A DNA stretch of 45,625 nucleotides from an uncultured Planctomycetales bacterium (lineage in GTDB: Bacteria; Omnitrophota; Gorgyraeia; Gygaellales; Profunditerraquicolaceae): positions 1 through 45,625 of the forward strand of contig CAYOMI010000001.1 of NCBI GenBank assembly GCA_964405005.1. Direction: 5' to 3'. The translations under genes and the position numbers were made by a program. Positions 13,878 to 33,240 of the stretch are shown one piece after another; positions within the stretch are counted from its first letter, which is position 1, and each line of letters begins with the position of its first letter. The notes under the pieces are model-generated. The model ran no database searches. It was not told where the DNA came from and saw only the letters and a list, made by a program, of their open reading frames with translations.

Positions 13878-13918
13878 CGGGAAATGGACTATTTTTTTGA
13901 TTGCAGCCCATATTAATT

Positions 13919-15904: not shown

Positions 15905-15936
15905 CTATTTACAGAGTTAAAGCGGAGAAGGCCGTT

Positions 15937-21098: not shown

Positions 21099-21124
21099 AA
21101 AGCCATAAGGGGGTTAACTAAGAA

Positions 21125-22510
21125 GTGAAAATTGTTTTGGTCCGCTGCCCGTGTATTAGTTTACCCTATCCACCCTCGATAGGCATGGCATACCTTAACT
21201 CTTTCCTGAAAAAAGCCGGACACGAAGTATTTATCTTTGACTTGAATATTGAGCTGTTTCATTCTGTTAACGATGAGAAGAAAAAAATATGGAACACGCC
21301 GGACGGTTCCAGTTTAATCAAATTATCCGAAGAAGTCATTTCCGACCATAATGATTTGTTTAATAATTATATAAGAAAAATACTGGCAACAGAAGCAACT
21401 GTAATCGGTTTTTCTGTCTGGGATAGCAACATTTTATGTAGTTTAAAATTTGCCCGAGAGATCAAAAAACTCAATAGAAGTATAAACATTGTGTTCGGCG
21501 GTCCCGAATGTTTTCCGAGGTGGTCGGGGAAAACTTTAATTAAAGAAGATTGCGTAGATGTGGTTGTTTATGGCGAAGGAGAAAAAACTTTAAAAGAATT
21601 AATCGACTATATAGAAGTGACGGGAAGAATCGGGCTTCATCCGGGCACGATTGTAAAAAATAATTTTAATATTATAGATTGCAGCAGCAGAGAACCAATA
21701 AAGGATTTAGATAGTATGCCGTTTCCTGATTTTAACGGTTTTCCTTTGGATAAATATATGACTAACGAATTTCCTATTATTTTTAACCGAGGATGCACAA
21801 GAAAATGTACATATTGTTCTCTGCCAGGCACCACGCCTCGATATCGTTGGCGCAGCGCTGATTCTATATATGAAGAGATGAAGTATCAAATTCGGAAACA
21901 CCCTCAAATAGATTCGTTTCATTCAGACTCCCCCGCCTTAAATTCTAATCTTAAAGAACTATCGAAATTATGCGATTTAATTATTCGCGATGGTTTAAAA
22001 ATAATATGGTCTGGATTCGCGGTTATTGATAAAGATATGGATTTAAGTTTATTAAGAAAAATGAAACAAGCAGGATGCCTTGGTTTAAACTTCGGCATAG
22101 AAAGCGGTTCCCAAAGAGTAACCGATAAAATGCGAAAAGGGTTCCGAATTCAAGATTCCGAGCAGAATATTCGAGATGCTTATAGTGCCGGAATAGAAGT
22201 AGTTGCAAATTTTATCGTGGGTTTTCCCGGTGAAAACGAAGAAGATTTCCAGCTAACATTAGATTTTATTTCGCGTAATCGGCAATACATTTCTTTCGTG
22301 GGCAGCGCAGCTTCTTGTTGGATATTGCCGTATATGTATCTTTATGACCACACTGATGAATTTGGTATTACGATGCATTCCGGCGACTGGTCTTGCGAAG
22401 GAAACAATTATCAGATAAGGAAGGCAAGAGAGGATAGGTTTAGGGAATTTATCAATTCACTCAATATCGGAAAATCATTTCCTAAATTACCACAGGAGGT
22501 TGGCCGGTAA
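21125..22510 (+). CDS. Cobalamin-binding-domain (class B) radical SAM protein, clade I
   Basis: The GTG start gives MKIVLVRCPC, matching the family N-terminus, and AAGGGGG lies upstream. Motifs FGGPECFPR, VYGEGEKTLKEL, core NRGCTRKCTYCSL, GIESGSQRV and IVGFPGENEEDF. Confidence 0.85.
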   Translation: MKIVLVRCPCISLPYPPSIGMAYLNSFLKKAGHEVFIFDLNIELFHSVNDEKKKIWNTPDGSSLIKLSEEVISDHNDLFNNYIRKILATEATVIGFSVWDSNILCSLKFAREIKKLNRSINIVFGGPECFPRWSGKTLIKEDCVDVVVYGEGEKTLKELIDYIEVTGRIGLHPGTIVKNNFNIIDCSSREPIKDLDSMPFPDFNGFPLDKYMTNEFPIIFNRGCTRKCTYCSLPGTTPRYRWRSADSIYEEMKYQIRKHPQIDSFHSDSPALNSNLKELSKLCDLIIRDGLKIIWSGFAVIDKDMDLSLLRKMKQAGCLGLNFGIESGSQRVTDKMRKGFRIQDSEQNIRDAYSAGIEVVANFIVGFPGENEEDFQLTLDFISRNRQYISFVGSAASCWILPYMYLYDHTDEFGITMHSGDWSCEGNNYQIRKAREDRFREFINSLNIGKSFPKLPQEVGR

Positions 22511-22517
22511 AGTTGTT

Positions 22518-23639
22518 ATGTTAATAATTAAAAAAATAATTCTTATTTTTTGTAGTTTGTTAGTTTCGTTAATTTTGGCGGAATTGATTATTCGCATTAC
22601 GCCAAGTTTGCGTTCTAAATATCAGCTATCTAGATATGAGGTAAAGAAGCACTCGGCGGTGCCTTGCGGGATTCCCAAAAAAGAAGAAGCTAGAAATAAG
22701 AGAGAGGGGATAAATAAGGATTATCGCAAGTCTGGGCTTTATCTCTACAGACCATCCAAAGTCCCAGGCTTGGGTTATGAACTTATTCCATATATGCCAG
22801 CTGAACGAGAAGTTAATTCTTACGGTATGGTTTGTAAGGAATATCCTATTAAGAAAGGGCCGAATGTTTATCGAATTTTAGTACTCGGAGATTCTGTCAC
22901 GCAGGAATATTCCTTTGTTGAAAATCTGGAAACTATGTTAAATGCTGCACATTTAGGTTTGGACTTTGAACTTTGGAATGCAGGCACCGGTGGTTACCAG
23001 GTTAATCAATATGCCGCCTATCTAAAATATAAAGGAATCCGATATGAGCCCGATATGGTAATTGTCGACTTTTGTCTGAATGATTTTGACCTTGACACGA
23101 TTGTTTACTATGAAACAAAAAACGGTGTTGCCGGATACCGCAATACGGGGTATTACTTATCCAAGGCCATTCCTTTGAATAAATGGTGCTACAGGCATTC
23201 TTATCTTTACCGCCTTTTAATTATAAACCTCGAAAAATTATTATTTACTCATGAGGGGAAAAACAAAGATTCCGCTTTTGATGAAAATCAGGAAGGCAGG
23301 TATTATCTTAAGTCAATAATGGATATCTGCAAAAAACATAAAATTCCCCTGCTGGCCGTGATTTTCCCCTATCTTAAGCCATTAGGCGAATATACCGATG
23401 GAGAGAAAGAACAATACAAGATGATATCGGATTCATTACGCGAGTTAGATATCGACGTTATTGATTTGCATGCGTATATACCCGAAGAAATTCGGCATAC
23501 GTTCAGGTCCAATAAGAAAGTTGCCCAGGACATAGTTCATATGAAACCTGAAGGTTATAACTTTGCAGCGAGAGCAGTTTTTAGTTATCTCGTTAAAAAT
23601 TATTTTGAGAAGACAAAGATTATAAAAAAAGTTAAATGA
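22518..23639 (+). CDS. Membrane-anchored SGNH/GDSL-family hydrolase
   Basis: Anchor MLIIKKIILIFCSLLVSLILAELII. Motifs YRILVLGDSVTQE, WNAGTGGY, DFCLNDF, HSYLYRL, IFPYLKPL and block V QDIVHMKPEGY. The ATG at 22518 is preferred over the track's TTG at 22500, which overlaps the upstream stop, but the start is uncertain. The stop forms ATGA with the next gene. Confidence 0.78.
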   Translation: MLIIKKIILIFCSLLVSLILAELIIRITPSLRSKYQLSRYEVKKHSAVPCGIPKKEEARNKREGINKDYRKSGLYLYRPSKVPGLGYELIPYMPAEREVNSYGMVCKEYPIKKGPNVYRILVLGDSVTQEYSFVENLETMLNAAHLGLDFELWNAGTGGYQVNQYAAYLKYKGIRYEPDMVIVDFCLNDFDLDTIVYYETKNGVAGYRNTGYYLSKAIPLNKWCYRHSYLYRLLIINLEKLLFTHEGKNKDSAFDENQEGRYYLKSIMDICKKHKIPLLAVIFPYLKPLGEYTDGEKEQYKMISDSLRELDIDVIDLHAYIPEEIRHTFRSNKKVAQDIVHMKPEGYNFAARAVFSYLVKNYFEKTKIIKKVK

Positions 23640-25120
23640 AAATTACTTTGATTTTATGCCCGAGTTGGGGAATTGAAACGCCGCATTTAGGGATAGCTTT
23701 GCTGGTAGCGAATTTAAGAAGACAACGCTTTCAGGTTGAGGTGTGTGATTTAAATATCCGGATCCATAATAAATATAAAGAAAAAGGGTTGTGGAAATCC
23801 GAGGAAGATGTGCATTGGGAAGACGATAATTCTACTTCACAGTTTATCAAAGAAAATGATGTCTATTTAGAATCTTTTGTGGACGAGGTTCTCTCGAAGG
23901 ACGCCGGAGTTATAGGTTTTTCTATTTATAATACCACAAAAAGATTATCTTTAGAGTTAGCCAAGAGGATTAAGAAAAAAGATAAGAATAAGATTATTAT
24001 TTTTGGAGGACAGCAATGTTTCCCTAAAGAATCAGCAGAGGGGCTAATTAAAGACGAAGCAGTAGACGCAATAGTTATGGGAGAGGGCGATGAGGTTTTA
24101 CCGGAATTAATCGGAAAGATAGAAAAACTAAAAAGAATAGATTTTTGTCCCGGCTTGATTTACAAAGAGAATGGAAAAATAGTTGATTGCGGAATACGCC
24201 CGCCCGTATCAAATTTGGATGGCCTTTCCCTCCCCGATTTCAGCGACTTTTCGCTTCAATCATATGATAATCCGCACCAACTCCCTATACTTTCTAGTCG
24301 AGGATGTCCCTATCAGTGTGTTTTTTGCAGCACGAAATTATTCTGGATAAAATATAGGGCCATGAGCGGAGAAAACATCTTTAGAGAAATGGAATATCAG
24401 TTAAATAGATATAAGGATATCTATTTCTTCACTTTTAATGATCATGTTATAAATGCCGATATGCAGGCTCTTTCGAAATTTTGCGATTTAATCCTAGAGA
24501 CGAAATCCAACAGAATCCATAGCGATTCTAATTGGGATAGATTGTGCTGGAGGGGAGCAGCAGTTATCAGAGATGAAATGGATAAAGAGTTTATAAAGAA
24601 AATGAGAGATGCGGGATGCATGGAACTCGAATATGGAGTGGAGAGCGCTTCGCCGAAGATTAGAAGATTGATGAGAAAGCCCCCCTATGACATAAGTATT
24701 ATTGAACGCGTAATCCGGGATACTCATAAGTCAGGAATCAGGGCGAGGGTAAATTTTATGTTTGGTTTCCCCGGAGAAACAGAAGAGGATTTTGAAGAAA
24801 CGCTTAATTTTCTCAGGAGGAATAGAGAATTCTTCGCACAAGTTCATCCGAGCGAAACCTTTTGTTGCATCGACCCCGGAACATATTTATTCAGTCATCC
24901 GGAAGAATTCGGCGTTACTAGTCGTTATCATTCGCTTTTTTGGGAATCCGTCGATGGCAAAAATATATATCCGGAACGATTAAAAAGGCATCAAATCTTT
25001 TGTGAACTGGCCGATTCTTTAAATATCCCTTTAAGTCCAGGTGGCCCCAAGATATCGCTTCATAAAGATTTGTTTTTGGAAGAATATAATAAATACAAGG
25101 TGTCCGCTGCATCAAAATAA
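23636..25120 (+). CDS. Cobalamin-binding-domain (class B) radical SAM protein, clade I
   Basis: MKITLILCPSWG, FGGQQCFPK, VMGEGDEVLPEL, core SRGCPYQCVFCST, GVESASPKI and MFGFPGETEEDF. The C-terminus resembles the first halves of the 924-aa fusions (FWESVDGKNIYPERLKR...CELADSLNIP). Confidence 0.85.
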   Translation: MKITLILCPSWGIETPHLGIALLVANLRRQRFQVEVCDLNIRIHNKYKEKGLWKSEEDVHWEDDNSTSQFIKENDVYLESFVDEVLSKDAGVIGFSIYNTTKRLSLELAKRIKKKDKNKIIIFGGQQCFPKESAEGLIKDEAVDAIVMGEGDEVLPELIGKIEKLKRIDFCPGLIYKENGKIVDCGIRPPVSNLDGLSLPDFSDFSLQSYDNPHQLPILSSRGCPYQCVFCSTKLFWIKYRAMSGENIFREMEYQLNRYKDIYFFTFNDHVINADMQALSKFCDLILETKSNRIHSDSNWDRLCWRGAAVIRDEMDKEFIKKMRDAGCMELEYGVESASPKIRRLMRKPPYDISIIERVIRDTHKSGIRARVNFMFGFPGETEEDFEETLNFLRRNREFFAQVHPSETFCCIDPGTYLFSHPEEFGVTSRYHSLFWESVDGKNIYPERLKRHQIFCELADSLNIPLSPGGPKISLHKDLFLEEYNKYKVSAASK

Positions 25121-25138: not shown

Positions 25139-26833
25139 ATGGGGATCGTTAAATACCTTAAGTCAAAATTGAGCTTAATCTTTTTGTTGGCGGTCGTATG
25201 TTTTTATGCCGTTAATAACTACATTTGGTTGCGTTTAGATGCGCCGTTTCCCACCTTCCATTATTATGCTTTTGATTTCGGTAGGGTGATGGAGTTTTAT
25301 AATTTATTTCAAAAGTTTGATTTAAGTTTTCTTATAGACCAAATCATTAAGGTTCATAACCTGTTTTTTCACGCTCTAGCCGTTGCCTTTACGGCGTTGA
25401 TTTTTCAAAAATCGTATATTGCTATTATTCTATTTAATAATATCCTTTATTTTACAATCGCAATAATTTCTATATATTCGATAGCAAAAAAAATATTCGA
25501 TAAACCCACGGGTTTACTGGCAGTTGCTATATTTTCATTATATCCAGCCGTATATGGCTTATCACGGTTTTATGTCATAGAATTTGCCGTTATGGGCATG
25601 ATTCCTTTATGCGTGTTATATTTGCTGAATACAGAAGAGTTCACAAATCGGAAATATTCATTATTATTTGGTTTGGCTTTAGGATGGGCAATGATGATTA
25701 AATATTCCGCCGTGACGTTCATTATAGGACCGTTGCTTTATGTTTTGGTTAAAGCGCTAATTTTTAGACAGAGAGATAAAGTTACAAAGTTGCTGCCCGT
25801 TATTTTAAATATTGGATTATCGGCTTTTGCTGCCGCAGCAGTAACGGGGATAAAATATTTTAATTTTAATAATATTAAATTCTATCTCTCCCATCCTCTT
25901 CTTGAGGTAATCCCCGGTCAGGAGTGGTATAAACTTAACAGCCTTAGAGTTTATACCGCAGGCTTATTTGATCAACAGCTCTCCTTGGTTTTTTTCTTTG
26001 TCTTATTGTTTGCGTCGCCCGTATTTTTTTTCAAAGTAAAAAGAAAAATAATAATTATTTTGTTCACCTGGATTATAGTGCCCTGGTTAATTTTAGTCAC
26101 TATGCCTAATTCCTACAGGTCGGCTCATTTCATCATACCGTATTTGCCTGCGATAGCGTTAATATCGGCAGCCGGTTTAACCCAAGCTTTAAAAAGAAGC
26201 AAGAAGCTCAAGGCGATTATAATCGTGTTAATTCTGGCTATTGGCATAATTCAATATTATGACTTTTCATTTGGATTAGGTTTTAACTTGAGCAACTGGA
26301 AGGTCAAAATAACAAAAGGCTGGACAATCCATAATTATATCCTTTCAGAAAATGTTTGCCGCCGTCCAGAAAGCAGTAAAATTTATGATGAAGTAATATT
26401 GCTATTCGCTAAATATTCTGATAAACACGACAGTAAAGTATTAGTGCTGCCTCCCAGCGTTAGCTATTCTTATGTGCAGGCCCAAGTATGGGACTGCATC
26501 GCATGGCTTAGGGATCTCCCGATAGTTGCGTTAGACGCAAACCGCCAGTTTATAGATAAGGTATTAGAGAGACTTGAAGAAGTGGATTTTATTTTATGTG
26601 CGGGAAATAAGGATATCAAGGATAGCTCTTATTTAGATCATACATTAATGCGAGTCAGGAATCTTTACAGAAAAGAGCTTGATAACGAAACACTGGTAAA
26701 AATAGACCAGTTTTTAGCAGGGGATGTTAAGATGTTTAGAGAGAATTTTTATAGGCGCGTAAGTAAATTTGTGTTAATTGAAACAATTCCCTATAAGGAA
26801 ACCTGCTTCCGTATATATAAAAAACAGCGATGA
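25139..26833 (+). CDS. Polytopic membrane protein, putative GT-C fold glycosyltransferase (ArnT/PMT-like)
   Basis: About 12 predicted TM helices in the first ~380 aa, then a ~180-aa soluble C-terminal domain. The pattern SLYPAVYGLSRFYVIEF ... GLALGWAMMIKYSA resembles the ArnT/PMT_2-type (GT39/GT83) signature region. Paralog of 44065..45625. Confidence 0.55.
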   Translation: MGIVKYLKSKLSLIFLLAVVCFYAVNNYIWLRLDAPFPTFHYYAFDFGRVMEFYNLFQKFDLSFLIDQIIKVHNLFFHALAVAFTALIFQKSYIAIILFNNILYFTIAIISIYSIAKKIFDKPTGLLAVAIFSLYPAVYGLSRFYVIEFAVMGMIPLCVLYLLNTEEFTNRKYSLLFGLALGWAMMIKYSAVTFIIGPLLYVLVKALIFRQRDKVTKLLPVILNIGLSAFAAAAVTGIKYFNFNNIKFYLSHPLLEVIPGQEWYKLNSLRVYTAGLFDQQLSLVFFFVLLFASPVFFFKVKRKIIIILFTWIIVPWLILVTMPNSYRSAHFIIPYLPAIALISAAGLTQALKRSKKLKAIIIVLILAIGIIQYYDFSFGLGFNLSNWKVKITKGWTIHNYILSENVCRRPESSKIYDEVILLFAKYSDKHDSKVLVLPPSVSYSYVQAQVWDCIAWLRDLPIVALDANRQFIDKVLERLEEVDFILCAGNKDIKDSSYLDHTLMRVRNLYRKELDNETLVKIDQFLAGDVKMFRENFYRRVSKFVLIETIPYKETCFRIYKKQR

Positions 26834-26849
26834 ATATGTCGGCAAGCAA

Positions 26850-28322
26850 ATGTATAGATTGGATGGAGAGGACGCCGAGGTGTCTTTAAAGGAGAAAAAA
26901 CCAGATAAGGTTCTTATCGTAGGGGCTGGCCCGGCAGGCCTGACATTGGGGTTAAGGCTTTCTGAAGCAGGTGTGCCTGTGGAAATTATAGAAGCAGATG
27001 ATAGGGTGGGCGGACTTTGTAAGACCATTCATTTTAAAGGTTGCTACTTTGACCTTGGCGGGCATAGATTTATTACTAAAGATAAGAATATTCAGAGTTT
27101 TCTTGAGAAATTAATGGGCGATGATTTATTGGTCAGGCCTAGAAAAAGCATAATTTGTCTAAAGGATAAAAAAATAGCCTATCCTGTTAATGCCAAAGAT
27201 ATTGTAAGCAAGCTCGGTCTAAAATTTTCCACCCAAGCGTTCCTTGATTATTTTTTGACTTCAACACTTCAGCGCTTTTATCCACGTTTGGATTCTAGTT
27301 TTGAACAATGGGTTATAAATCGCTATGGCGTAACTTTATATAACTTTTATTTCGGTCCCTATTCTAAAAAACTTTGGGGGATTAAACCGTGTCAAATATC
27401 TCATAGATGGGCCGAGCAGAGAATTTTACTTTTGAATCTGGGGGATGTTATTGCGAAAATGTTATGGAAGAAAGGTAATAGTCCCCCAACATATGCGCAT
27501 CAATTCTGCTATCCTAAAAATGGAATTGGCCAAATTTTTGAAAAAATAGCGGAAAAGATTACCGTTTTAGGAGGAGCGATCCGGGTCTCTTCAGGTTTAA
27601 GTAAAGTTAAAGTTTCCGGAGATAAAATTATTTCAATAAGTTATAGAACTTCTGGCGGTGCCATAAAAGAAACATCCGGCGATTATATAATTAATACCGC
27701 ACCCCTGCCTTCCTTCATCAATATGTTATCTTGTAATGACAATGGTAATAATGAAGAAATAACAGAAAATAGTCATTATCGCAGCATTCGTTTTATGAAT
27801 GTATGTTTGGATCTCCCTTCAATTACTGATAACACCTGGATTTATGTGCCCGAATCAGAGATTGTTTTCTTCAGGATCCAAGAATTACGGAACTGGAGTC
27901 CGACTGTTGTCCCGGAGGGAAAAACAGCCTTGACTCTTGAGATAGCCTGTGATTATAACGACAAGATATGGAAAATGCCAGAAGATGAATTGTGGCAACT
28001 TTGCTATAGGGGGCTGGTAAGGTTAGGACTACTTAAATCAAATAATGTTTTATGGTACTTTTCTTCTTATGCGCGGCACGCATACCCCATTTATTACCTG
28101 GATTATGAGAAAAATGTGAATAAGATGTATTTTTACATTTCTAAAATTAAAAATTTACGATGCATCGGCAGGCAAGGTCTCTTTAGGTACAACAATATGG
28201 ACCATTCGATTAAAATGGGCCTGTTAACAGCGGAACACATCCTTAATGGTTATCCTTTTTCTGAGGTAATGAAGATTGCTACCGAACATGCGATATTCGA
28301 TTGGCAGGATCCTGGAAAATAG
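26850..28322 (+). CDS. FAD/NAD(P)-binding oxidoreductase (amine-oxidase / protoporphyrinogen-oxidase / UDP-galactopyranose-mutase-like superfamily)
   Basis: N-terminal dinucleotide fold KVLIVGAGPAGLTLGLRLSEAGVPVEIIEADDRVGG, followed by DLGGHRF. The ATG at 26850 is preferred. The track's TTG at 26778 would overlap the upstream gene by 56 nt. Confidence 0.7.
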   Translation: MYRLDGEDAEVSLKEKKPDKVLIVGAGPAGLTLGLRLSEAGVPVEIIEADDRVGGLCKTIHFKGCYFDLGGHRFITKDKNIQSFLEKLMGDDLLVRPRKSIICLKDKKIAYPVNAKDIVSKLGLKFSTQAFLDYFLTSTLQRFYPRLDSSFEQWVINRYGVTLYNFYFGPYSKKLWGIKPCQISHRWAEQRILLLNLGDVIAKMLWKKGNSPPTYAHQFCYPKNGIGQIFEKIAEKITVLGGAIRVSSGLSKVKVSGDKIISISYRTSGGAIKETSGDYIINTAPLPSFINMLSCNDNGNNEEITENSHYRSIRFMNVCLDLPSITDNTWIYVPESEIVFFRIQELRNWSPTVVPEGKTALTLEIACDYNDKIWKMPEDELWQLCYRGLVRLGLLKSNNVLWYFSSYARHAYPIYYLDYEKNVNKMYFYISKIKNLRCIGRQGLFRYNNMDHSIKMGLLTAEHILNGYPFSEVMKIATEHAIFDWQDPGK

Positions 28323-28337: not shown

Positions 28338-29864
28338 ATGAAAATTAGTATTATCAGTCCTAATTTAAGCGGTTGTGTTTCAATTTTAGATTGCGGCGTT
28401 ACGTATCTGGCGACGTATATAAATGAACGCACGCCACACAGGGCTACCATTTGGGATTATACATTTAGACGTAAATATTGGAAGAGATATCTTGCCAGCA
28501 AGTTTGCGAGTGATAAACCGGACGCAATCGGAATCACGTTTACGACCCTTTATGAAGGGTACGTGAGAGATTCGGTTAATTTTATCAGAGCTAATCTTTC
28601 AAAGGATATTCCGATAATTGTTGGCGGGATACATCCAACCCTTAAACCCAAAGATGCACTTGAAATTGAGGGGGTAAATGTTGTAATTCTCGGGGAAGGA
28701 GAAGAGGCCCTTGCCGAGGTATTAGATGCCATAGAAGGAAAACAAGGCTTTGAGGGCATAACGGGGGCAGCTTATATCGGAGATAATGGCGAACCGGTTG
28801 AAAATCCAAGAAGGCCGTGGATTAAGGATATCAATGCATTGCCGTTTCCAAATTATGACTTATGGGAAGATATCGAGAAATATTTTTATTTTCTTGGCCA
28901 GTTATGGCTTATAGGGACCCGCGGTTGTCCTTATAGTTGCACCAACTGCGAAGAGCTTCCTTTGCGAGAGGCAGTGCCGGGATGCAGGTACAGAATCCGG
29001 GACCCCGGGAATTATGTGCAGGAGATCCAGTATCATTACGAGAAATATAAAGATATCGGATTCCGCATGGCCCATCCATTTGATCCGGTCTTTCCGCTTA
29101 ATCGCGAATGGACAAGGGAATTCTGCAGCGAATATATAAAGTCCGGCCTGCATAAGAAACTTCCTTTTTCAATTTTCAGCAGAGGCGACACTTTCTTTAT
29201 TAATTCTTCTCCGGATAAATTTGATGAGGAGAGGTTAAAATGGCTAGCGGAGGCAGGCTGTAAGGAAATACGCGTAGGTATCGAAGCCGGCTCAGAGAGG
29301 ATGAGAAATAAGATTCATCAGAAAAATGTTTCCGACGAACAATTGCGTTTGTCTTTCCAGAATTTCAAAAAATACAATATGCTTACGATGGCATATAACA
29401 TGCTCGGCGGGCCGACCGAAACAAAAGCCGAATTAAAACAGACATTCAGGATGAACGTAAGATTCAATCCCAACAAGCCGATTTTCTTTATCTATCAGGA
29501 GCTTACCCATGATTTATACGGGATGGGGCTGCTTGTTCAGGACCATGAGACAGCTACGACATCTGTGATAAAAATTAAAAGCAAAAAAAATAGTTTGGTA
29601 CGTAAAACGCAGGATCAGACGACCATTCAATTCGGCGAACCAATAGAATCAGAACATTATTCCAAGCAATGGCTCATGGCATTTCAGGGTTTTTGTTATT
29701 TCTATTTTGTAGGAAGGCGCATTTTAAAATTAATTTACCGCCAAAGGCACAGATTTTTTATTAATTTCGTCAAGTATATGTACCGCGGGTATAAAGAGGG
29801 GGCAAATACGAAAATCGTATTTGCTTATTTCCTTAGCGCTTGCGGCGACAACCTTTTTTCTTAA
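28338..29864 (+). CDS. Cobalamin-binding-domain (class B) radical SAM protein, clade II, with hydrophobic C-terminal extension
   Basis: IIVGGIHPTLKP, ILGEGEEALAEVL, core TRGCPYSCTNCEE and GIEAGSERM. The C-terminal segment WLMAFQGFCYFYFVGRRILKLIY looks like a membrane or amphipathic segment. Confidence 0.8.
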   Translation: MKISIISPNLSGCVSILDCGVTYLATYINERTPHRATIWDYTFRRKYWKRYLASKFASDKPDAIGITFTTLYEGYVRDSVNFIRANLSKDIPIIVGGIHPTLKPKDALEIEGVNVVILGEGEEALAEVLDAIEGKQGFEGITGAAYIGDNGEPVENPRRPWIKDINALPFPNYDLWEDIEKYFYFLGQLWLIGTRGCPYSCTNCEELPLREAVPGCRYRIRDPGNYVQEIQYHYEKYKDIGFRMAHPFDPVFPLNREWTREFCSEYIKSGLHKKLPFSIFSRGDTFFINSSPDKFDEERLKWLAEAGCKEIRVGIEAGSERMRNKIHQKNVSDEQLRLSFQNFKKYNMLTMAYNMLGGPTETKAELKQTFRMNVRFNPNKPIFFIYQELTHDLYGMGLLVQDHETATTSVIKIKSKKNSLVRKTQDQTTIQFGEPIESEHYSKQWLMAFQGFCYFYFVGRRILKLIYRQRHRFFINFVKYMYRGYKEGANTKIVFAYFLSACGDNLFS

Positions 29865-29866
29865 AA

Positions 29867-31297
29867 ATGAAAAAATTATCCAGGATTTTGTTAATCAATC
29901 CGCCTCAAATTTATGCCGGTAGGTTTCTGGATGGTTATCAGGGGACAAGGCCGGTCTTGCCGCCGCTTGGCTTAGCATATATCGCGGCATATTTGGAAAG
30001 GCAAAACTACAAAGTAGATATATTTGACGGTATGGTTGAAGATGCATCTGCGAAAGAAATTGCGTTTCGCACGCATAGTTATGATTTAGTGGGCATTACT
30101 TCCATAACTTTTCAAGTCATAATTACTTATCAGGTGCTTCGGGAGATCAGGCGGAAAAACCCGACAATACCTGTTGTTATCGGCGGTCCTCACGTTTCCT
30201 GCCTGCCGTTTGAACCGTTGAAAAAAGGTTTGGCAGATTTTTCTGTTGTCGGCGAAGGCGAAGAAGTTCTTTTAAATATAATAAACGCTATTGAAAAAAA
30301 CGAAGATTTGACTTCTATCCCAGGTGCAGCTTGTAGATTAAACGGGCAGATTTATCCGGCAAAAGATTCGGGCATGGTTAAAGACATAGACTCGCTTCCT
30401 CTCCCTGCCAGACATTTATTGCCGATGAAAAAATATCGTACAAGCGCAGTACGAACGCGCAGATATCCGGCAATGTCCATGGTTACTTCGCGCGGCTGTC
30501 CGATGCAATGTAATTTTTGTTTTAACCAGCTGCCTTATCGAAAGAATGTAAGGTTTTTTTCTGCGGAAGGAATAGCTGAAGAAATAGCCCAGCTTGTTTC
30601 TGAATATGGAACAAAAGAAATACAATTTTGGGATGACAACTTTCTTGTTAATAAGCCGCGCATCAATCGCCTTTTTGAAATTATGAAATCAAAGAATATG
30701 GATGTTTCTTTTGATTGCGAAGGGACAATAAATTCCTTTGACCCCGAAGTCTTAAAAAAACTAAAGATGATCGGCTGCCACAGCGTTTCTTACGGAATTG
30801 AATCGGGCAGCCAGAGAATCCTTGATTTAATGGGTAAAAGAACCTCGATTGAGCAGATAAAAATGGTTGTGAAAGAAACTAAAAAATTAGGTTTAGATGT
30901 GCGCGGTTATTTTTTATTAGGTTTTCCTACCGAGACAAAAGAAGAAATTTTAGATACCATTAATTTTTCTAAAGAACTGAAACTTACCGATGCGACCTTC
31001 TCGTTGTTTGTTCCTTTGCCGGGTACGGCGGCTTATGATATGGTAAAGGAAGAGCCGGGATTTATGAAAAACTATTGGGACAAGATGATTCTTTCAGAAA
31101 TAAGTTTTCCCAGGTCGCCGTTAGTCTATCATCCCCCGGTGATCGGCGAAAAGGAGCTGTTGCATTTACACCGGGCCGCCCTAAGTAAATTTTATTTACA
31201 GCCGCAGCAGATATTAAACAAACTGTCCAGGAGCTTCAAGAGTTACCATGTTTTTAAGGAATCGCTTAAAGGACTAAAATCATTAATCAAGGGATAA
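29867..31297 (+). CDS. Cobalamin-binding-domain (class B) radical SAM protein, clade II
   Basis: PPLGLAYIAAYLERQNYKV, VIGGPHVSCLP, VVGEGEEVLLNI, core SRGCPMQCNFCFN, GIESGSQRIL and LLGFPTETKEE. The ATG at 29867 (MKKLSRILLINPP) is preferred and lies just after the upstream stop. The track start at 29840 is an upstream non-ATG codon. Confidence 0.85.
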   Translation: MKKLSRILLINPPQIYAGRFLDGYQGTRPVLPPLGLAYIAAYLERQNYKVDIFDGMVEDASAKEIAFRTHSYDLVGITSITFQVIITYQVLREIRRKNPTIPVVIGGPHVSCLPFEPLKKGLADFSVVGEGEEVLLNIINAIEKNEDLTSIPGAACRLNGQIYPAKDSGMVKDIDSLPLPARHLLPMKKYRTSAVRTRRYPAMSMVTSRGCPMQCNFCFNQLPYRKNVRFFSAEGIAEEIAQLVSEYGTKEIQFWDDNFLVNKPRINRLFEIMKSKNMDVSFDCEGTINSFDPEVLKKLKMIGCHSVSYGIESGSQRILDLMGKRTSIEQIKMVVKETKKLGLDVRGYFLLGFPTETKEEILDTINFSKELKLTDATFSLFVPLPGTAAYDMVKEEPGFMKNYWDKMILSEISFPRSPLVYHPPVIGEKELLHLHRAALSKFYLQPQQILNKLSRSFKSYHVFKESLKGLKSLIKG

Positions 31298-31316
31298 GCG
31301 CCAAGAAAGTGAAATA

Positions 31317-32684
31317 ATGAATATCGTTATTACCCGCCCGAAGTATTATACGCATCTGATCACGCCGCCGTTAGGCATGGCGTATGTGGCTTCCTATTTA
31401 AGGCAAAATAATTTCAAAGTTCATCTTATGGATGCGCTTAAAGAAAATGTCGATAATTCTAAATTAGTTTTACGGTGTGGCGCTGCCGATGTTGTCGGTA
31501 TATTTTGCATGAGCGATTATTTTTGGGATGTAATCGATTTGGTCAAAAGACTCAAGGCGGCGGGCAAAACCGTAGTAATCGGCGGTCCGCATGCCACGGT
31601 AATGCCGAAGGAAACCCTGCAGTACACCGAGGCGGATTATTGTATTGTTGGAGAAGGCGAAAAAACAATGTTGGAATTAGCTTCAGCCTTGGAAAATAGA
31701 GAAGATCCAACGAACATACCGGGGTTATATTCCAGGTCTACGGTTAAGTTCATTGCCAGGGATTTTTTTAATAATCTTGACGAAATAACTTTCCCCGCAT
31801 GGGACGAAATTGATCCAAGAACCTATCCCTTAGCGCCGCACGGAGCTGTAATTAAGGCATTTCCTGTCGCGCCGGTTACTACTTCGCGCGGCTGTCCGTT
31901 TTCTTGCCATTTTTGCGCTAGTCCGAAAATCTGGAATCACCAGATAAGATACCGTTCCGCACAAAATGTGGTAGACGAAATTGAGCTATTGGTAAAAAAA
32001 TACGGAGTTAGGGAAATCCACTTTGAAGATGACAATCTCACCTTAAAGAAATCCCATATCCAAGCCATATGTGAAGAAATTTTAGGAAGAAATATCAGGG
32101 TACACTGGGCTGTCCCTAATGGAATACGCGTAGATTCCGTCTCTGAAGAAATTTTGAAATTAATGAAAAAGAGCGGTTGCTACAGCGTAGCTTTTGGGAT
32201 TGAATCCGGTTCACAAGAAATTCTTAATAATATAGGCAAGAAGATGGATCTTGGGATTATGCGCTCGGCAATTAAAATGGCCAGTAAAGCCGGCTTAACT
32301 ACCCAGGCTTTTATTATTTTTGGTCTACCGGGAGAGACGCCCGCAACAATTAAAGAGACCATAGAAATGGTTCTTTCTTTGCCGTTGCATAAAGCTCAAT
32401 TTTTGCTCCTTGATCTTCTGCCGGGGTCGCGGCTTTGGGATGCTTTTAGCCAACACGGCATAGAATGCTTCAAGAAACGCAGCTATCAGGAACCCGGATA
32501 TATTCCCGACGGTTTAACAGCGGATTATTTAATTAGGGTACGCGCTGAGGCATTCAGGAGATTCCATCTGCGTCCGAGGCAGATTTATGCACTTTTAAGG
32601 ATGTTCAAAATAAAACAGACAAAATTTATAATCCAAAGGATAAGAGACTTTTCTATGTTTGGTTCATTTCACAATACCCTGTGA
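31317..32684 (+). CDS. Cobalamin-binding-domain (class B) radical SAM protein, clade II
   Basis: PPLGMAYVASYLRQNNFKV, VIGGPHATVMP, IVGEGEKTMLEL, core SRGCPFSCHFCAS, GIESGSQEIL and IFGLPGETPATI. Confidence 0.87.
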   Translation: MNIVITRPKYYTHLITPPLGMAYVASYLRQNNFKVHLMDALKENVDNSKLVLRCGAADVVGIFCMSDYFWDVIDLVKRLKAAGKTVVIGGPHATVMPKETLQYTEADYCIVGEGEKTMLELASALENREDPTNIPGLYSRSTVKFIARDFFNNLDEITFPAWDEIDPRTYPLAPHGAVIKAFPVAPVTTSRGCPFSCHFCASPKIWNHQIRYRSAQNVVDEIELLVKKYGVREIHFEDDNLTLKKSHIQAICEEILGRNIRVHWAVPNGIRVDSVSEEILKLMKKSGCYSVAFGIESGSQEILNNIGKKMDLGIMRSAIKMASKAGLTTQAFIIFGLPGETPATIKETIEMVLSLPLHKAQFLLLDLLPGSRLWDAFSQHGIECFKKRSYQEPGYIPDGLTADYLIRVRAEAFRRFHLRPRQIYALLRMFKIKQTKFIIQRIRDFSMFGSFHNTL

Positions 32685-32688
32685 ACCT

Positions 32689-33210
32689 ATGGTAAATGGC
32701 GTTTTAATTGGAATTATTTGTTTTATTTTGTTTCTATCCAATGTCTGCTTTTTCCATGTTTTTAAGATCCGGCGTCATTTCCGTTTTATGGCCGTAATGT
32801 TTGTGTCAACTTTGGTATTTTATATAATTTTGTATCTGCTCTTTTTTGATGCGCACTTGCAAAGATTCGCATCTATTTTTATACCTATAGAGATATTTGC
32901 TTTTTGGCATGGTCTTTTCTTGCATTTTTCATCGTGCTATCTATACCTGTACCTTATTCAGGTGATAGATCGTTCACCCTCGACAAGAATAATGGTAGAA
33001 ATACTTTATTCCCAAGAAAGAAAACTTACCTTAACCCAGATTAAACAACGCTATAATATCGACAAGAGAGTTTCTGATAAAATAGAAGAAATGATTCTCT
33101 CGGGATATGTAAAGAAGGAGGCAGATGGGTATATGCTTACCGATAGAGGCAGGAAATGCATGGGAGTTTTTAAAGCCATTAGAAATTATCTAAAATTAGA
33201 AAGAAATTAA
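32689..33210 (+). CDS. Small membrane protein (3-4 TM) with C-terminal winged-helix-like domain
   Basis: Hydrophobic N-terminal ~100 aa (VLIGIICFILFLSNVCFF, FMAVMFVSTLVFYIILYLLFF, IFAFWHGLFLHFSSCYLYLYLIQVI). The next stretch, DRSPSTRIMVEILYSQERKLTLTQIKQRYNIDKRVSDKIEEMILSGYVKKEADGYMLTDRGRK, has a MarR/wHTH-like helix-turn-helix-wing pattern. The ATG at 32689 lies 5 nt after the upstream stop. Confidence 0.6.
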   Translation: MVNGVLIGIICFILFLSNVCFFHVFKIRRHFRFMAVMFVSTLVFYIILYLLFFDAHLQRFASIFIPIEIFAFWHGLFLHFSSCYLYLYLIQVIDRSPSTRIMVEILYSQERKLTLTQIKQRYNIDKRVSDKIEEMILSGYVKKEADGYMLTDRGRKCMGVFKAIRNYLKLERN

Positions 33211-33240
33211 CCGCAAGATTATGTTTTTTGATTAAAGCAG

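What the first reader, a model, noticed from the sequence alone, without database searches (positions are those of the whole stretch)
25139..28322. SPASM-type enzymes without any peptide precursor; context points to a glycan or glycolipid substrate
SPASM-domain rSAMs are best known as peptide maturases. However, no intergenic space here could hold a precursor ORF inside the rSAM blocks, and I found no plausible small ORF in the three larger gaps.

Instead the island embeds a GT-C-type polytopic glycosyltransferase (25139..26833) and an FAD oxidoreductase of the amine-oxidase/UDP-galactopyranose-mutase-like superfamily (26850..28322). It ends in GT9, GT2 and GT4 genes plus a second GT-C paralog (40810..45625).

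My inference is that the rSAM/SGNH machinery tailors a lipid-linked or envelope-associated glycan, for example by C-methylation, epimerisation, dehydration or cross-linking of sugars, together with O-acyl handling. That would be an unusual chemistry space for so many rSAMs.
Basis: inference. Interest (0 to 1): 0.68.

Follow-up and report, generated by a model that had tools for sequence, protein, structure and literature searches.

The report
Radical-SAM-rich sugar-tailoring envelope locus
This whole 45.6-kb contig from an Omnitrophota-like bacterium is one gene cluster with 23 radical-SAM domains wrapped around membrane glycosyltransferases and a sugar-ring mutase-like flavoenzyme. Related clusters in other phyla point to an undescribed radical pathway that tailors cell-envelope sugars rather than a peptide.

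Summary
All 34 genes lie on the + strand and coding is about 97.6%. Eighteen proteins carry 23 radical-SAM (rSAM) domains, each with an intact CX3CX2C motif. 25139-26833 is a GT-C glycosyltransferase. 26850-28322 is a full-length relative of UDP-galactopyranose mutases. GT9, GT2, GT4 and a second GT-C close the contig.

Only three gaps exceed 60 bp. One holds a transposase relic and one a decayed rSAM gene. No small ORF is shared with related loci.

First, GT-C, the mutase-like FAD enzyme, three B12-domain rSAMs and the rSAM at 33830-34978 are syntenic orthologues in other Omnitrophota contigs. Second, relatives of that last rSAM sit in sugar loci in Deltaproteobacteria, Aenigmarchaeota and 25 of 26 long metagenome loci. 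Those loci carry epimerases, DegT, GT2, GtrA, carbamoyltransferase and GT-C.

The closest solved relatives are sugar-acting rSAMs (AprD4, BlsE).

Best reading (confidence about 0.6): cytoplasmic radical tailoring of an activated sugar, GT-C transfer at the periplasmic face, then periplasmic SGNH acyl handling. The chemistry and the acceptor are inferred. No curated family threshold is met. No description was found in the literature searched.

The parts
3..1115 (+). g01: SGNH hydrolase with an inserted TPR array. Its 5' end is cut by the contig edge.
   Evidence: Pfam Lipase_GDSL_2 plus TPR. GDS motif present. Paralogue of g05 at 34% identity.
1112..3886 (+). g02: 924-aa fusion of a family-A B12-domain rSAM, a TPR, and an rSAM with a 7-Cys SPASM.
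   Evidence: Pfam Radical_SAM x2 and SPASM at 48 bits. Two CX3CX2C motifs. Cys pattern.
3868..5953 (+). g03 and g04: two membrane-anchored SGNH hydrolases (3868-4935 and 4916-5953).
   Evidence: Pfam Lipase_GDSL_2. N-terminal TM segment. GDS and DxxH motifs.
5977..7413 (+). g05: membrane-anchored SGNH hydrolase with an inserted TPR array.
7422..10196 (+). g06: 924-aa fusion of a family-A B12-domain rSAM and a second rSAM.
   Evidence: Pfam. Two CX3CX2C motifs. 34% identical to g02 over the full length.
10206..11282 (+). g07: family-D rSAM with a short (5-Cys) SPASM/twitch domain.
   Evidence: Pfam SPASM at 40 bits. Best NCBIfam hit is N_Twi_rSAM at 92.6 bits, below its cut-off of 170. Cys pattern.
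11296..16752 (+). g08-g12: an array of family-C rSAM units of about 270 aa, with one family-D enzyme among them. g08 (11296-12999) holds two units. g09 is 13038-13877. g10 (13901-14971) is the family-D rSAM-SPASM. g11 is 14972-15904. g12 is 15937-16752.
   Evidence: Pfam. Paralogy. Best NCBIfam hit is the STM4011 family, below cut-off.
16797..19715 (+). g13: 972-aa triple rSAM (family C, family C, family D with SPASM).
   Evidence: Three CX3CX2C motifs. Pfam. All named homologues are from Omnitrophota.
19722..22510 (+). g14 and g15: family-A B12-domain rSAMs (19722-21098 and 21125-22510).
   Evidence: Pfam B12-binding plus Radical_SAM. g15 is 65% identical to its L003 orthologue.
22500..23639 (+). 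g16: membrane-anchored SGNH hydrolase.
   Evidence: 56% identical to its L003 orthologue.
23636..25120 (+). g17: family-A B12-domain rSAM.
   Evidence: 65% identical to its L003 orthologue.
25139..26833 (+). g18: GT-C glycosyltransferase (PMT_2 type). An alternative start at 25184 was used by the public gene call.
   Evidence: Pfam. Homologues. Model and Foldseek hits to GT-C enzymes. 64% identical to its L003 orthologue.
26850..28322 (+). g19: flavoenzyme related to UDP-galactopyranose mutase (UGM). The ORF could also start at 26778.
   Evidence: PDB 4dsg at E=1.6e-31 over the full length. Equivalents of catalytic His, Arg327, Tyr395 and Tyr429 are kept. The Arg176 equivalent is Gly. NCBIfam PRK07208 at 375 bits against a cut-off of 389. 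80% identical to L003 and 47% to L012.
28338..32684 (+). g20, g21 and g22: family-B B12-domain rSAM trio (28338-29864, 29840-31297, 31317-32684).
   Evidence: Pfam. 73-77% identical to L003 orthologues. Best solved relative of g21 is AprD4 (6fd2, E=3e-22). L012 and L014 carry orthologues.
32659..33810 (+). g23 and g24: paralogous proteins of about 185 aa with three TM segments and a C-terminal winged-helix-like domain.
   Evidence: Pfam HTH_45 at 26.1 bits. TM prediction. The pair is conserved upstream of g25 homologues in L003, L016-L018, L020, L029 and L036.
33830..34978 (+). g25: rSAM with a 7-Cys C-terminal domain. It is the most widely conserved member of the core.
   Evidence: Pfam Radical_SAM plus DUF3463. 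276 homologues. Model pLDDT 91. Best global superposition is BlsE (7vob, TM 0.66/0.76). phmmer best hit is BlsE at E=7e-12.
35017..35094 (+). Relic of the C-terminus of an IS-type integrase, inside the 235-bp gap.
   Evidence: Pfam rve_3 at E=1.1e-5, profile positions 37-67 of 67.
35214..35876 (+). g26: membrane-anchored TPR protein.
   Evidence: Pfam. TM segment. Orthologues in L003 and L005.
36057..36626 (+). g27: 189-aa protein with no Pfam match. It is a single copy of a domain that is tandemly duplicated in the ~350-aa neighbours of g28-like rSAMs.
36633..37691 (+). g28: rSAM with a short SPASM/twitch domain.
   Evidence: Pfam SPASM at 44 bits. 70% and 63% identical to L004 and L005 orthologues that lie beside GT2/GT4 and PMT_2 genes.
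37750..39423 (+). g29: family-A B12-domain rSAM.
39413..40471 (+). g30: membrane-anchored SGNH hydrolase.
40572..40718 (+). Decayed N-terminal fragment of a family-A B12-domain rSAM, inside the 338-bp gap.
   Evidence: tblastn with g29 residues 15-53: 44% identity, E=4.9e-5 against the gap sequences.
40810..41691 (+). g31: GT9 (heptosyltransferase-family) glycosyltransferase, on the short side at 293 aa.
   Evidence: Pfam Glyco_transf_9 at 44.4 bits. NCBIfam heptosyltransferase models all below cut-off.
41698..42666 (+). g32: GT2 glycosyltransferase with two predicted C-terminal TM segments.
   Evidence: Pfam. TM prediction. PDB hits only to generic GT-A domains. 35% identical to an L004 GT2.
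42684..44039 (+). g33: GT4 glycosyltransferase.
   Evidence: Pfam Glycos_transf_1 plus Glyco_transf_4. 45% identical to the L004 GT4.
44065..45625 (+). g34: second GT-C (PMT_2). Its 3' end is cut by the contig edge.
   Evidence: Frame read. Pfam PMT_2 at 48.8 bits. 24% identical to g18. 32% identical to an L005 PMT_2.

Best explanation
The contig is one locus for making and attaching a heavily tailored envelope sugar.

**Cytoplasmic stage (inferred).**
- An activated sugar, either nucleotide-linked or polyprenyl-phosphate-linked, is remodelled by a conserved five-gene core.
- The core is the UDP-galactopyranose-mutase-like flavoenzyme g19, three B12-domain rSAMs g20-g22 (AprD4-like), and the BlsE-like rSAM g25.
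- g19 would carry out a pyranose-to-furanose type ring change.
- In this Omnitrophota lineage, paralogue arrays add further radical steps. The arrays are six family-A B12-domain rSAMs, seven family-C units, three family-D twitch/SPASM rSAMs and g28.
- Those steps could be C-methylation, deoxygenation, oxidation, epimerisation or decarboxylation.

**Membrane stage (inferred from family behaviour).**
- A GT2 loads the sugar on a polyprenyl phosphate.
- The GT-C enzymes g18 and g34 transfer it to an acceptor on the periplasmic face.

**Periplasmic stage (inferred).**
- Six membrane-anchored SGNH enzymes with intact catalytic motifs add or remove O-acyl groups.
- TPR proteins act as scaffolds.

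**What is shown and what is not.** Domain identities, predicted topology, paralogy, absence of a precursor gene, and conserved cross-phylum synteny with sugar genes are shown. Substrate, chemistry, order of steps and acceptor are inferred.
For: **Cross-phylum core.** Orthologues of g19, g20, g21/g22 and g25 sit together in three places.
- Other Omnitrophota contigs, at 70-80% identity.
- A deltaproteobacterial locus, at 47%, 40%, about 31% and 48% identity. There the neighbours are an AftD-type GT-C, two GT2s, a sugar-1-phosphate nucleotidyltransferase and an SDR epimerase/dehydratase.
- An Aenigmarchaeota locus with DegT aminotransferase, two epimerases, GT2, three PMT_2 GT-Cs and a carbamoyltransferase.

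**Metagenome survey.**
- Of 26 metagenome loci of at least 12 kb anchored on g25 relatives, 25 carry a sugar-pathway marker: B12-rSAM 16, UGM-like 15, GT2 15, SDR epimerase 14, DegT 8, carbamoyltransferase 7.
- The UGM-like gene lies 0-5.6 kb from g25 in 20 loci.
- 5 of 10 sampled polytopic neighbours are PMT, PMT_2 or YfhO (one PMT_2 hit below Pfam's cut-off).
- GtrA lies directly upstream of a g25 relative in L089.

**Omnitrophota synteny.** The family-A/C/D rSAM arrays are always interleaved with PMT_2, SGNH and GT2 genes in L003, L004, L005, L097 and L098.

**g19 is sugar-type, not desaturase-type.** It aligns over its full length with UGMs. It matches phytoene desaturase only in the FAD-binding start.

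**Closest solved relatives act on sugars.** These are AprD4 for g21 and BlsE for g25.

**Topology fits a two-compartment pathway.** rSAMs have no TM segment. SGNH and TPR proteins have N-terminal anchors. GT-Cs are polytopic.

**No RiPP signature.** There is no precursor gene, RRE, peptidase or exporter.
Against: - Everything about the substrate is guilt by association. No enzyme reaches a curated family cut-off.
- The window itself has no nucleotide-sugar synthase, initiating phosphoglycosyltransferase, Wzx/Wzy, ABC exporter or GtrA.
- The best NCBIfam match of family A is a RiPP C-methyltransferase model (150 bits, cut-off 282).
- The lowest Foldseek E-values for g25 are RiPP maturases: SuiB, SkfB and PqqE.
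- Family C resembles the uncharacterised STM4011 family.
- g32 is not detectably close to solved polyprenyl-phosphate GT2s.
- PMT-type GT-Cs can glycosylate proteins, so the acceptor could be a protein.
- The marker survey has no computed background rate.
- The contig is only a fragment of a MAG.
Confidence: 0.6

Rival explanations
1. It is a RiPP or protein-modifying system of the proteusin type. The many B12-dependent C-methyltransferases and SPASM enzymes decorate a peptide or protein encoded elsewhere. The GT-Cs then glycosylate that product, as protein O-mannosyltransferases do.
For: - Family A's best curated match is TIGR03975, a RiPP C-methyltransferase, with ApyD next.
- The lowest-E structural hits of g25 are SuiB, SkfB and PqqE.
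- PMT_2 relatives include protein mannosyltransferases.
- Precursors can be encoded in trans, and the contig is only a fragment of the genome.
Against: - All those matches are far below their cut-offs.
- No precursor-like ORF is present or conserved in the window or in about 90 related loci.
- No RRE/PqqD, peptidase or exporter was found.
- Segments N-terminal to the rSAM motif are only 12-60 residues in families C and D, g25 and g28. That is too short for an RRE.
- The neighbours conserved across phyla are nucleotide-sugar enzymes.
Confidence: 0.13
2. It is a lipid-tailoring locus. The rSAMs methylate, cross-link or otherwise alter acyl, isoprenoid or polyprenol chains, as HpnP/HpnR, Tes or ladderane-associated rSAMs do. 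The SGNH 'lipases' handle lipid esters. The FAD enzyme acts as a desaturase.
For: - g22 matches the 'lipid biosynthesis B12-binding/radical SAM' model (181 bits) and g21 matches HpnJ (183 bits).
- Tes appears among the weaker hits.
- A UbiA prenyltransferase lies in the L009-L011 cluster.
- SGNH enzymes are often lipases.
Against: - All those scores are far below their cut-offs (360-578 bits).
- The FAD enzyme aligns over its full length with sugar mutases and only at the FAD-binding start with phytoene desaturase.
- No fatty-acid, isoprenoid or glycerolipid genes occur in any of the loci.
- Conserved partners are epimerases, DegT, nucleotidyltransferase, GT2, GtrA and GT-C.
- From general knowledge, HpnJ itself acts on the sugar of a glycolipid, and UbiA also makes the polyprenyl-phospho-sugar donor in mycobacteria.
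Confidence: 0.12
3. It is a biosynthetic cluster for a diffusible glycoside-type natural product, aminoglycoside-like or nucleoside-like, rather than an envelope glycan.
For: The closest solved relatives come from antibiotic pathways: AprD4 from apramycin and BlsE from blasticidin S. From general knowledge, rSAM sugar tailoring has so far been characterised mainly in such pathways.
Against: - Two to four polytopic GT-Cs per locus, membrane-anchored periplasmic SGNH and TPR proteins, a GT9 gene and GtrA all point to the envelope.
- There are no scaffold-forming enzymes, such as an inositol or 2-deoxy-scyllo-inosose synthase, and no resistance or export genes in the window.
Confidence: 0.1

Closest known systems
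Sugar-tailoring radical SAM enzymes of natural-product pathways: AprD4 (apramycin 3'-deoxygenation), BlsE (cytosylglucuronate decarboxylase), and BtrN, DesII and GenK
   Same: - They are the closest solved relatives. AprD4 matches g21 at E=3e-22.
- BlsE matches g25 at E=7e-12 by sequence and gives the best global structural superposition, TM 0.66/0.76.
- They share the architectures seen here: a B12-like N-terminal domain plus rSAM, or an rSAM plus a short twitch/SPASM domain.
- They need no peptide substrate.
   Different: - Identity is low, and NCBIfam scores are 110 bits against a cut-off of 500 for AprD4 and 38 against 400 for BlsE.
- Here the enzymes sit in envelope-type loci with GT-C, SGNH and TPR genes, in arrays of up to 23 domains, not in antibiotic clusters.
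Polyprenyl-phosphate-sugar periplasmic glycosylation systems: GtrABC, ArnC/ArnD/ArnT, and the mycobacterial UbiA/DprE/Emb-Aft arabinofuranose pathway
   Same: - GT-C enzymes of the PMT_2/ArnT/AftD kind and a GT2 with C-terminal TM segments are present.
- GtrA and UbiA occur in related loci.
- A furanose-forming type enzyme lies next to a GT-C.
- From general knowledge, these systems likewise modify the sugar before it is flipped, as ArnD and DprE1/2 do.
   Different: - The window has no GtrA, ArnD, DprE or UbiA.
- g32 is not detectably close to solved GtrB or DPMS.
- Tailoring here would be done by radical SAM enzymes, which none of those systems use.
UDP-galactopyranose mutase (Glf, eukaryote-type UGM, PDB 4dsg and 3ute)
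   Same: - Full-length alignment and an FAD Rossmann motif.
- Equivalents of the flavin-site His, Arg327, Tyr395 and Tyr429, and the NxDHS segment, are retained.
   Different: - The Arg176/Arg182 equivalent is Gly.
- TIGR00031 scores 50 bits against a cut-off of 304, and PRK07208 scores 375 against 389.
- The substrate is unknown.
HpnI/HpnK/HpnJ branch of hopanoid biosynthesis (from general knowledge: a GT2 adds GlcNAc to a lipid, then the B12-domain rSAM HpnJ contracts the sugar ring)
   Same: It is a precedent for a B12-domain rSAM remodelling a sugar on a lipid-linked glycoconjugate beside a GT2. HpnJ is the top NCBIfam hit of g21 at 183 bits.
   Different: The score is far below the HpnJ cut-off of 578. 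No hopanoid genes are present. The scale and the partner genes are different.
Proteusin-type RiPP clusters (polytheonamide PoyB/C/D)
   Same: They contain multiple B12-dependent rSAM C-methyltransferases and other rSAMs in one operon. TIGR03975 is family A's best curated match.
   Different: There is no precursor, no nitrile-hydratase-like or Nif11 leader, no RRE and no protease. GT-C, UGM-like and SGNH genes are integral and syntenic.

Membership tests
RiPP biosynthetic gene cluster with rSAM/SPASM maturases | A precursor peptide gene next to the maturase genes | tested here: not met
   Coding is 97.6%. The three gaps are explained or lack any conserved ORF. No small ORF is shared with related loci. 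A precursor encoded in trans cannot be excluded.
RiPP biosynthetic gene cluster with rSAM/SPASM maturases | An RRE/PqqD-like peptide-recognition domain, a leader peptidase or a dedicated exporter | tested here: not met
   No such Pfam hit at E<=1e-3 in any of the 34 proteins. N-terminal extensions before CX3CX2C are 12-60 residues in the non-B12 rSAMs.
SPASM-domain radical SAM enzymes | A C-terminal 7-Cys motif that binds two auxiliary 4Fe-4S clusters | tested here: inconclusive
   Pfam SPASM is above its cut-off in g02, g07, g10, g13 and g28, and marginal in g08 and g11. Only the C-terminal part of g02 and g25 have 7 Cys. Families D and C and g28 have 5-6, which is twitch-like.
Radical SAM superfamily | A CX3CX2C cluster motif with a PF04055 match | tested here: met
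   23 motifs in 18 proteins, all inside PF04055 hits.
Class B (cobalamin-dependent) radical SAM methyltransferases | An N-terminal B12-binding domain plus an rSAM core, and membership of a characterised equivalog | tested here: inconclusive
   B12-binding is above its cut-off in 8 of 9 proteins. No equivalog cut-off is reached. The closest solved relative of g21 is AprD4, a dehydratase rather than a methylase.
GT-C fold glycosyltransferases (PMT_2 / ArnT / PMT type) | A polytopic membrane protein with a family HMM match and the GT-C fold | tested here: met
   PMT_2 at 50.7 and 48.8 bits. About 9-11 hydrophobic segments. Foldseek hits at E<=1e-3 are exclusively GT-C enzymes, though TM-scores are only 0.3-0.5 on a pLDDT-68 model.
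GT-C fold glycosyltransferases (PMT_2 / ArnT / PMT type) | A catalytic acidic residue in the first extracytoplasmic loop, and use of a polyprenyl-phosphate-sugar donor | tested here: inconclusive
   The Asp in 'YYAFDF' is present in 7 of the 9 aligned sequences; it is absent from the N-terminally truncated P0008 and is not aligned in P0009. The donor cannot be tested with these tools.
UDP-galactopyranose mutase (EC 5.4.99.9) | Full-length homology with retained catalytic residues, and the curated family score | tested here: inconclusive
   4dsg at E=1.6e-31 over residues 13-466. The His, Arg327, Tyr395 and Tyr429 equivalents are kept, and Arg176 is replaced by Gly. TIGR00031 scores 50 against 304, and PRK07208 scores 375 against 389.
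GtrABC / ArnC-ArnT three-component periplasmic glycosylation | A polyprenyl-phosphate GT2, a GtrA-type flippase and a GT-C encoded together | tested here: not met
   GT2 and GT-C are present. There is no GtrA in the window. g32 is not close to solved GtrB or DPMS. GtrA is present in the related locus L089.
Wzx/Wzy- or ABC-dependent O-antigen/EPS locus | An initiating phosphoglycosyltransferase, a flippase or ABC transporter, and a polymerase | tested here: not met
   None was found among the 34 proteins of the window. They may lie beyond the contig.
SGNH/GDSL hydrolases | A block I GDS nucleophile and a block V DxxH | tested here: met
   GDS is present in all six proteins. DxxH is present in five, and g01 has the variant GDSH. 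Pfam hits are above cut-off.

The most novel reading that the evidence does not exclude
The five-gene core (UGM-like flavoenzyme, three B12-domain rSAMs and a BlsE-like rSAM), together with GT-C enzymes, is an undescribed pathway shared by Bacteria and DPANN Archaea. It would make an unknown, radically remodelled sugar on an activated carrier and install it on the cell envelope. The sugar might be deoxygenated, C-alkylated or furanosidic. In Omnitrophota the pathway would have expanded into a radical 'assembly line' of more than 20 domains, including lineage-specific rSAM families (C and D) that perform new sugar chemistries.
Probability: 0.35. Interest if true: 0.85.

Novelty: new variant of a known kind. 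Interest (0 to 1): 0.66.

Why it matters
- **New territory for the enzymes.** Radical SAM tailoring of sugars is known from a handful of antibiotic pathways and one hopanoid step. It is not known as a large-scale feature of envelope glycan biosynthesis. A conserved, cross-phylum cassette that ties such enzymes to GT-C transferases would open a new area of glycan chemistry.
- **Functions for orphan families.** It would give functions to several large orphan rSAM families.
- **Annotation.** It warns against the default annotation of SPASM or B12 rSAM arrays as RiPP clusters by genome-mining tools.
- **Biology of the lineage.** It would say something concrete about the cell surface of Omnitrophota, an uncultivated and possibly host-dependent phylum.
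- **Testability.** The compact deltaproteobacterial version (L012) makes the hypothesis directly testable in a heterologous host.

Tried and rejected
- **Exact-sequence look-up of the 564-aa GT-C.** It found nothing because the public gene call starts 15 codons later. It was recovered through the homologue search.
- **NCBIfam equivalogs for 20 proteins.** No cut-off was reached, so no family name can be assigned.
- **Rfam at gathering threshold.** No RNA family was found in the window.
- **Promoter and terminator scan of 34800-40900.** Counts were no higher than in shuffles, so the scan says nothing about operon structure.
- **RBS test for small ORFs.** I rejected it as a criterion because only 7 of 33 real genes have a Shine-Dalgarno-like motif.
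- **g32 as a GtrB/ArnC-like polyprenyl-phosphate GT2.** PDB sequence search gave no support. I keep this only as an inference from architecture.
- **FAD enzyme as a carotenoid/squalene-type desaturase.** Rejected, because only the FAD-binding start matches those enzymes.
- **DUF5989 peptide as a candidate precursor.** Rejected. It is a hydrophobic single-TM protein that travels with carbamoyltransferase and SxtJ genes, and it is absent from the window.
- **Relics of carbamoyltransferase or UbiA in the window.** None were found.
- **Five full-text literature searches.** None found a description of this cluster type. The two Omnitrophota papers I read mention rSAM only in passing.
- **Left unused.** The representative-library search and the viral collections, because they carry no context or annotation that would bear on the question.

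Full report
**1. What is in the window**

The window is a complete 45,625-bp contig. The public copy of its GT-C protein, P0001, is recorded on a contig of exactly that length. G+C is 34-42%. ORF listing and frame inspection give 34 genes, all on the + strand and covering about 97.6% of the sequence. Pfam assigns the following:

- 18 radical SAM (rSAM) proteins
- six SGNH/GDSL hydrolases, two of which carry a TPR array
- one stand-alone TPR protein
- two PMT_2 GT-C glycosyltransferases (25139-26833 and 44065-45625)
- one amine-oxidase-type FAD protein (26850-28322)
- GT9, GT2 and GT4 genes (40810-44039)
- two paralogous proteins of about 185 aa with TM segments and a winged-helix-like domain
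- one 189-aa protein with no match

The 18 rSAM proteins hold 23 rSAM domains, each with an intact CX3CX2C motif. Four proteins are fusions of two or three rSAM units.

An all-against-all BLAST sorts the rSAMs into paralogue families:

- **Family A:** six B12-domain rSAMs (g02 N-terminal part, g06 N-terminal part, g14, g15, g17, g29), 37-44% identical.
- **Family B:** three more divergent B12-domain rSAMs (g20-g22).
- **Family C:** seven units of about 270 aa (in g08, g09, g11, g12 and g13).
- **Family D:** three rSAMs with a short SPASM/twitch domain (g07, g10 and the C-terminal part of g13).
- **Singletons:** g25 and g28.

No rSAM reaches the curated cut-off of any NCBIfam model.

**2. Checking the observation**

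*g18, the GT-C:*
- It matches PMT_2 (50.7 bits) and PMT, and is polytopic.
- It has no sequence relative in the PDB.
- A moderate AlphaFold model (pLDDT 68) hits only GT-C enzymes at E<=1e-3: STT3, AglB, DPY19, AftA, ALG12 and ArnT.

*g19, the FAD enzyme:*
- It aligns over residues 13-466 with eukaryote-type UDP-galactopyranose mutases (4dsg, E=1.6e-31).
- Equivalents of the flavin-site His, Arg327, Tyr395 and Tyr429 are kept. The Arg176 equivalent is Gly.
- Phytoene desaturase and amine oxidases match only the first 60-90 residues.
- It almost reaches NCBIfam PRK07208, at 375 bits against a cut-off of 389.

*The claim of no room for a precursor:*
- Gaps inside the rSAM blocks are at most 58 bp. 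Only three gaps are larger.
- The 235-bp gap contains the C-terminal relic of an IS-type integrase (rve_3, E=1.1e-5).
- The 338-bp gap contains a decayed N-terminus of a family-A rSAM.
- The 180-bp gap has no ORF of note.

*Corrections:*
- 'SPASM-type' describes a minority of the rSAMs. Most of those have only 5-6 C-terminal Cys, which is twitch-like. Only the C-terminal part of g02 and g25 have seven.
- Shine-Dalgarno motifs are rare in this organism (7 of 33 genes), so an RBS filter cannot be used.

**3. Origin**

The closest named relative of g18 is on a contig of 'Candidatus Omnitrophica bacterium bin-608', at 70% identity. More distant GT-C hits and all named family-C homologues are also from Omnitrophota. 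The contig is therefore from an Omnitrophota-like bacterium.

**4.

*(a) A conserved short precursor next to homologous clusters.*
- I compared all mostly-intergenic ORFs of 18-150 aa in the window and in L003-L008, and then ORFs of 25-140 aa across about 90 loci.
- Four recurrent families turned up:
  - a DUF5989/SxtK-like single-TM peptide (8 loci) and SxtJ-like proteins, which accompany carbamoyltransferase genes
  - GtrA
  - a 105-115-aa family downstream of distant g25 relatives (10 loci)
- None occurs in the window, and none looks like a RiPP precursor.
- There is no PqqD/RRE, peptidase or exporter.

*(b) The GT genes being an independent locus.*
- In L003 and its relatives L009-L011 and L018, orthologues of g13 through g26 lie in the same order.
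  - Identities are g18 64%, g19 80%, g20-22 73-77% and g25 70%.
- L004, L005, L097 and L098 interleave the same rSAM families with one to four PMT_2 genes, GT2s, SGNHs, asparagine-synthase-like genes, a methyltransferase-GT2 fusion and a 2017-aa multi-GT protein.
- The g28-type rSAM (63-70% identical) is next to g32/g33-like GT2 and GT4 genes in L004.

The GT genes are therefore integral to the island. The window does look like three modules, g01-g26, g27-g30 and g31-g34, joined at the three scarred gaps.

**5. Evidence from outside the phylum**

g25 belongs to a large family, with 276 hits at E<=1e-10. Three contexts stand out.

- **Deltaproteobacterial locus L012.** The gene order is AftD-type GT-C, GT2, sugar-phosphate nucleotidyltransferase, SDR epimerase/dehydratase, B12-rSAM, GT2, B12-rSAM, UGM-like FAD enzyme, B12-rSAM, g25-like rSAM, then large membrane proteins.
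  - The FAD enzyme is 47% identical to g19, one B12 protein is 40% identical to g20, and the g25 relative is 48% identical.
- **Aenigmarchaeota locus L014.** It has two epimerases, an rSAM-SPASM, GT2, DegT aminotransferase, two B12-rSAMs, three PMT_2 genes, an FAD enzyme, a g25-like rSAM and a carbamoyltransferase.
- **Metagenome survey.** A scan anchored on a g25 alignment returned 80 loci. I classified their ORFs by BLAST against a panel of Pfam-labelled reference proteins.
  - 25 of the 26 loci of at least 12 kb carry a sugar-pathway marker: B12-rSAM 16, UGM-like 15, GT2 15, SDR epimerase 14, DegT 8, carbamoyltransferase 7.
  - Where present, the UGM-like gene is 0-5.6 kb from g25.
  - Of ten unlabelled polytopic neighbours, five are PMT, PMT_2 or YfhO (one, L085, below Pfam's cut-off) and one is weakly EpsG-like.
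  - In L089 the order is GT2, GtrA, g25-like rSAM, then a polytopic protein.

I did not compute a background rate for these markers. From general knowledge they are far rarer than this in random 20-kb stretches.

**6. Closest characterised enzymes**

- g21's best solved relative is AprD4, the apramycin 3'-deoxygenation rSAM (E=3e-22).
- g25's best sequence hit is BlsE, a cytosylglucuronate decarboxylase (E=7e-12).
- A confident g25 model (pLDDT 91) superposes best on BlsE, with TM 0.66/0.76 and rmsd 3.8 Å.
- The lowest E-values, however, go to the RiPP maturases SuiB, SkfB and PqqE. DesII, viperin and MoaA follow.
- The fold evidence alone therefore does not separate peptide from sugar or nucleotide substrates. 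The genomic context does.

**7. Mechanism proposed**

Predicted topology separates two compartments. The rSAMs and g19 have no TM segment. All SGNH proteins and the TPR protein g26 have an N-terminal anchor. The GT-Cs are polytopic, and GT2 g32 has two C-terminal hydrophobic segments. The SGNH catalytic motifs are intact. On that basis I propose three stages:

1. In the cytoplasm, the g19-g22+g25 core remodels a nucleotide-linked or polyprenyl-phosphate-linked sugar by radical chemistry. The family A, C and D arrays and g28 add further steps in Omnitrophota.
2. The GT-Cs g18 and g34 transfer the sugar at the periplasmic face.
3. In the periplasm, the SGNH enzymes handle O-acyl groups on TPR scaffolds.

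All chemical steps, the carrier and the acceptor are inferred. The acceptor could be an LPS core (as the GT9 gene hints), another glycan, or a protein. Confidence is about 0.6.

**8. Rivals**

- **A RiPP or protein system with the substrate in trans (about 0.13).** It is favoured only by sub-threshold family resemblances. It is disfavoured by the absence of any precursor, RRE or protease and by the conserved sugar-gene neighbours.
- **A lipid-tailoring locus (about 0.12).** It is favoured by sub-threshold HpnJ and 'ladderane' B12 model hits and by a UbiA gene in L009-L011. It is disfavoured by the mutase-type FAD enzyme and by the absence of lipid genes.
- **A diffusible glycoside antibiotic (about 0.10).** It is favoured by the AprD4 and BlsE resemblance. 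It is disfavoured by the envelope-type membrane and periplasmic proteins.

**9. Comparison with what is known, and novelty**

The system works like a hybrid of two known kinds:

- polyprenyl-phosphate-sugar periplasmic glycosylation systems (GtrABC, ArnC/D/T, the mycobacterial arabinofuranose pathway)
- the rSAM sugar tailoring known from aminoglycoside and nucleoside antibiotics and from the HpnI/J/K hopanoid branch

It is not a demonstrable member of any of these families. Every curated threshold tested is missed, and GtrA, ArnD and DprE are absent from the window.

Five full-text searches found no description of this cluster type. I rate it a new variant of a known kind, an envelope-glycan locus with an unprecedented radical-SAM tailoring complement. 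Interest is 0.66. The scale (23 rSAM domains) and the cross-domain core cassette would surprise specialists, and the hypothesis is directly testable. The chemistry remains wholly inferred.

Noticed in passing
window 34979-35213 (relic at 35017-35094): The 235-bp gap after g25 contains the last ~31 codons of an IS-type integrase (rve_3, E=1.1e-5). In L003 and L009-L011 the corresponding position holds a 105-aa gene and a carbamoyltransferase. This suggests that an insertion or deletion event removed them here.
   Followed up: partly
window 40572-40718: The 338-bp gap before the GT9 gene holds a decayed N-terminal fragment of a family-A B12-domain rSAM (44% identity to g29 residues 15-53). All three large gaps lie at junctions between modules with different synteny partners.
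   Followed up: partly
window 3-1115 and 5977-7413: In the two SGNH-TPR proteins the TPR array lies between the N-terminal SGNH blocks and the C-terminal His block. It is therefore inserted within the hydrolase domain rather than appended to it. Each of these genes is followed by a 924-aa B12-rSAM/rSAM fusion, so the two-gene module is duplicated. The same pair occurs in L098.
   Followed up: partly
window 32659-33810; also L003, L016-L018, L020, L029, L036: A conserved pair of ~185-aa proteins, each with three TM segments and a winged-helix-like C-terminal domain, sits immediately upstream of g25 relatives in Omnitrophota loci. Their role is unknown. They could be regulators, or a flippase-like or carrier-handling component.
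   Followed up: no
window 36057-36626; L004 7678-8727, L005 14419-15492, L010 14371-15390: g27 (189 aa, no Pfam match) is a single copy of a domain that is tandemly duplicated in ~350-aa proteins. Those proteins always precede g28-type rSAM-SPASM genes.
   Followed up: partly
L004 17347-19173: The g28 orthologue in L004 (70% identical) carries an intein (Pfam Intein_splicing) inside the radical SAM enzyme.
   Followed up: no
L097 1-3008; proteins P0148, P0150, P0153, P0172: Related Omnitrophota loci encode a 2017-aa protein made of several GT2/GT4 domains. They also encode rSAM fusions of 1270-1475 aa that combine B12, TPR and three or more rSAM units. Gene fusion of this pathway seems common in the phylum.
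   Followed up: no
L064, L065, L071, L074, L077, L079, L080, L092, L095, L096: A conserved 105-115-aa ORF family with no Pfam match lies directly downstream of distant g25 relatives (35-40% identity) in ten loci. It is absent from the window and from the Omnitrophota loci.
   Followed up: partly
L014 and L015 (Aenigmarchaeota contigs): A DPANN archaeon carries the g25-like rSAM (46% identical) with B12-rSAMs, PMT_2 GT-Cs and sugar enzymes. This implies transfer of the cassette between domains. L015 looks like a frameshift-ridden copy of the same locus.
   Followed up: no
whole window: Shine-Dalgarno-like motifs precede only 7 of 33 genes, and many genes overlap by 4-26 bp. Translation initiation here is largely SD-independent or coupled.
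   Followed up: partly
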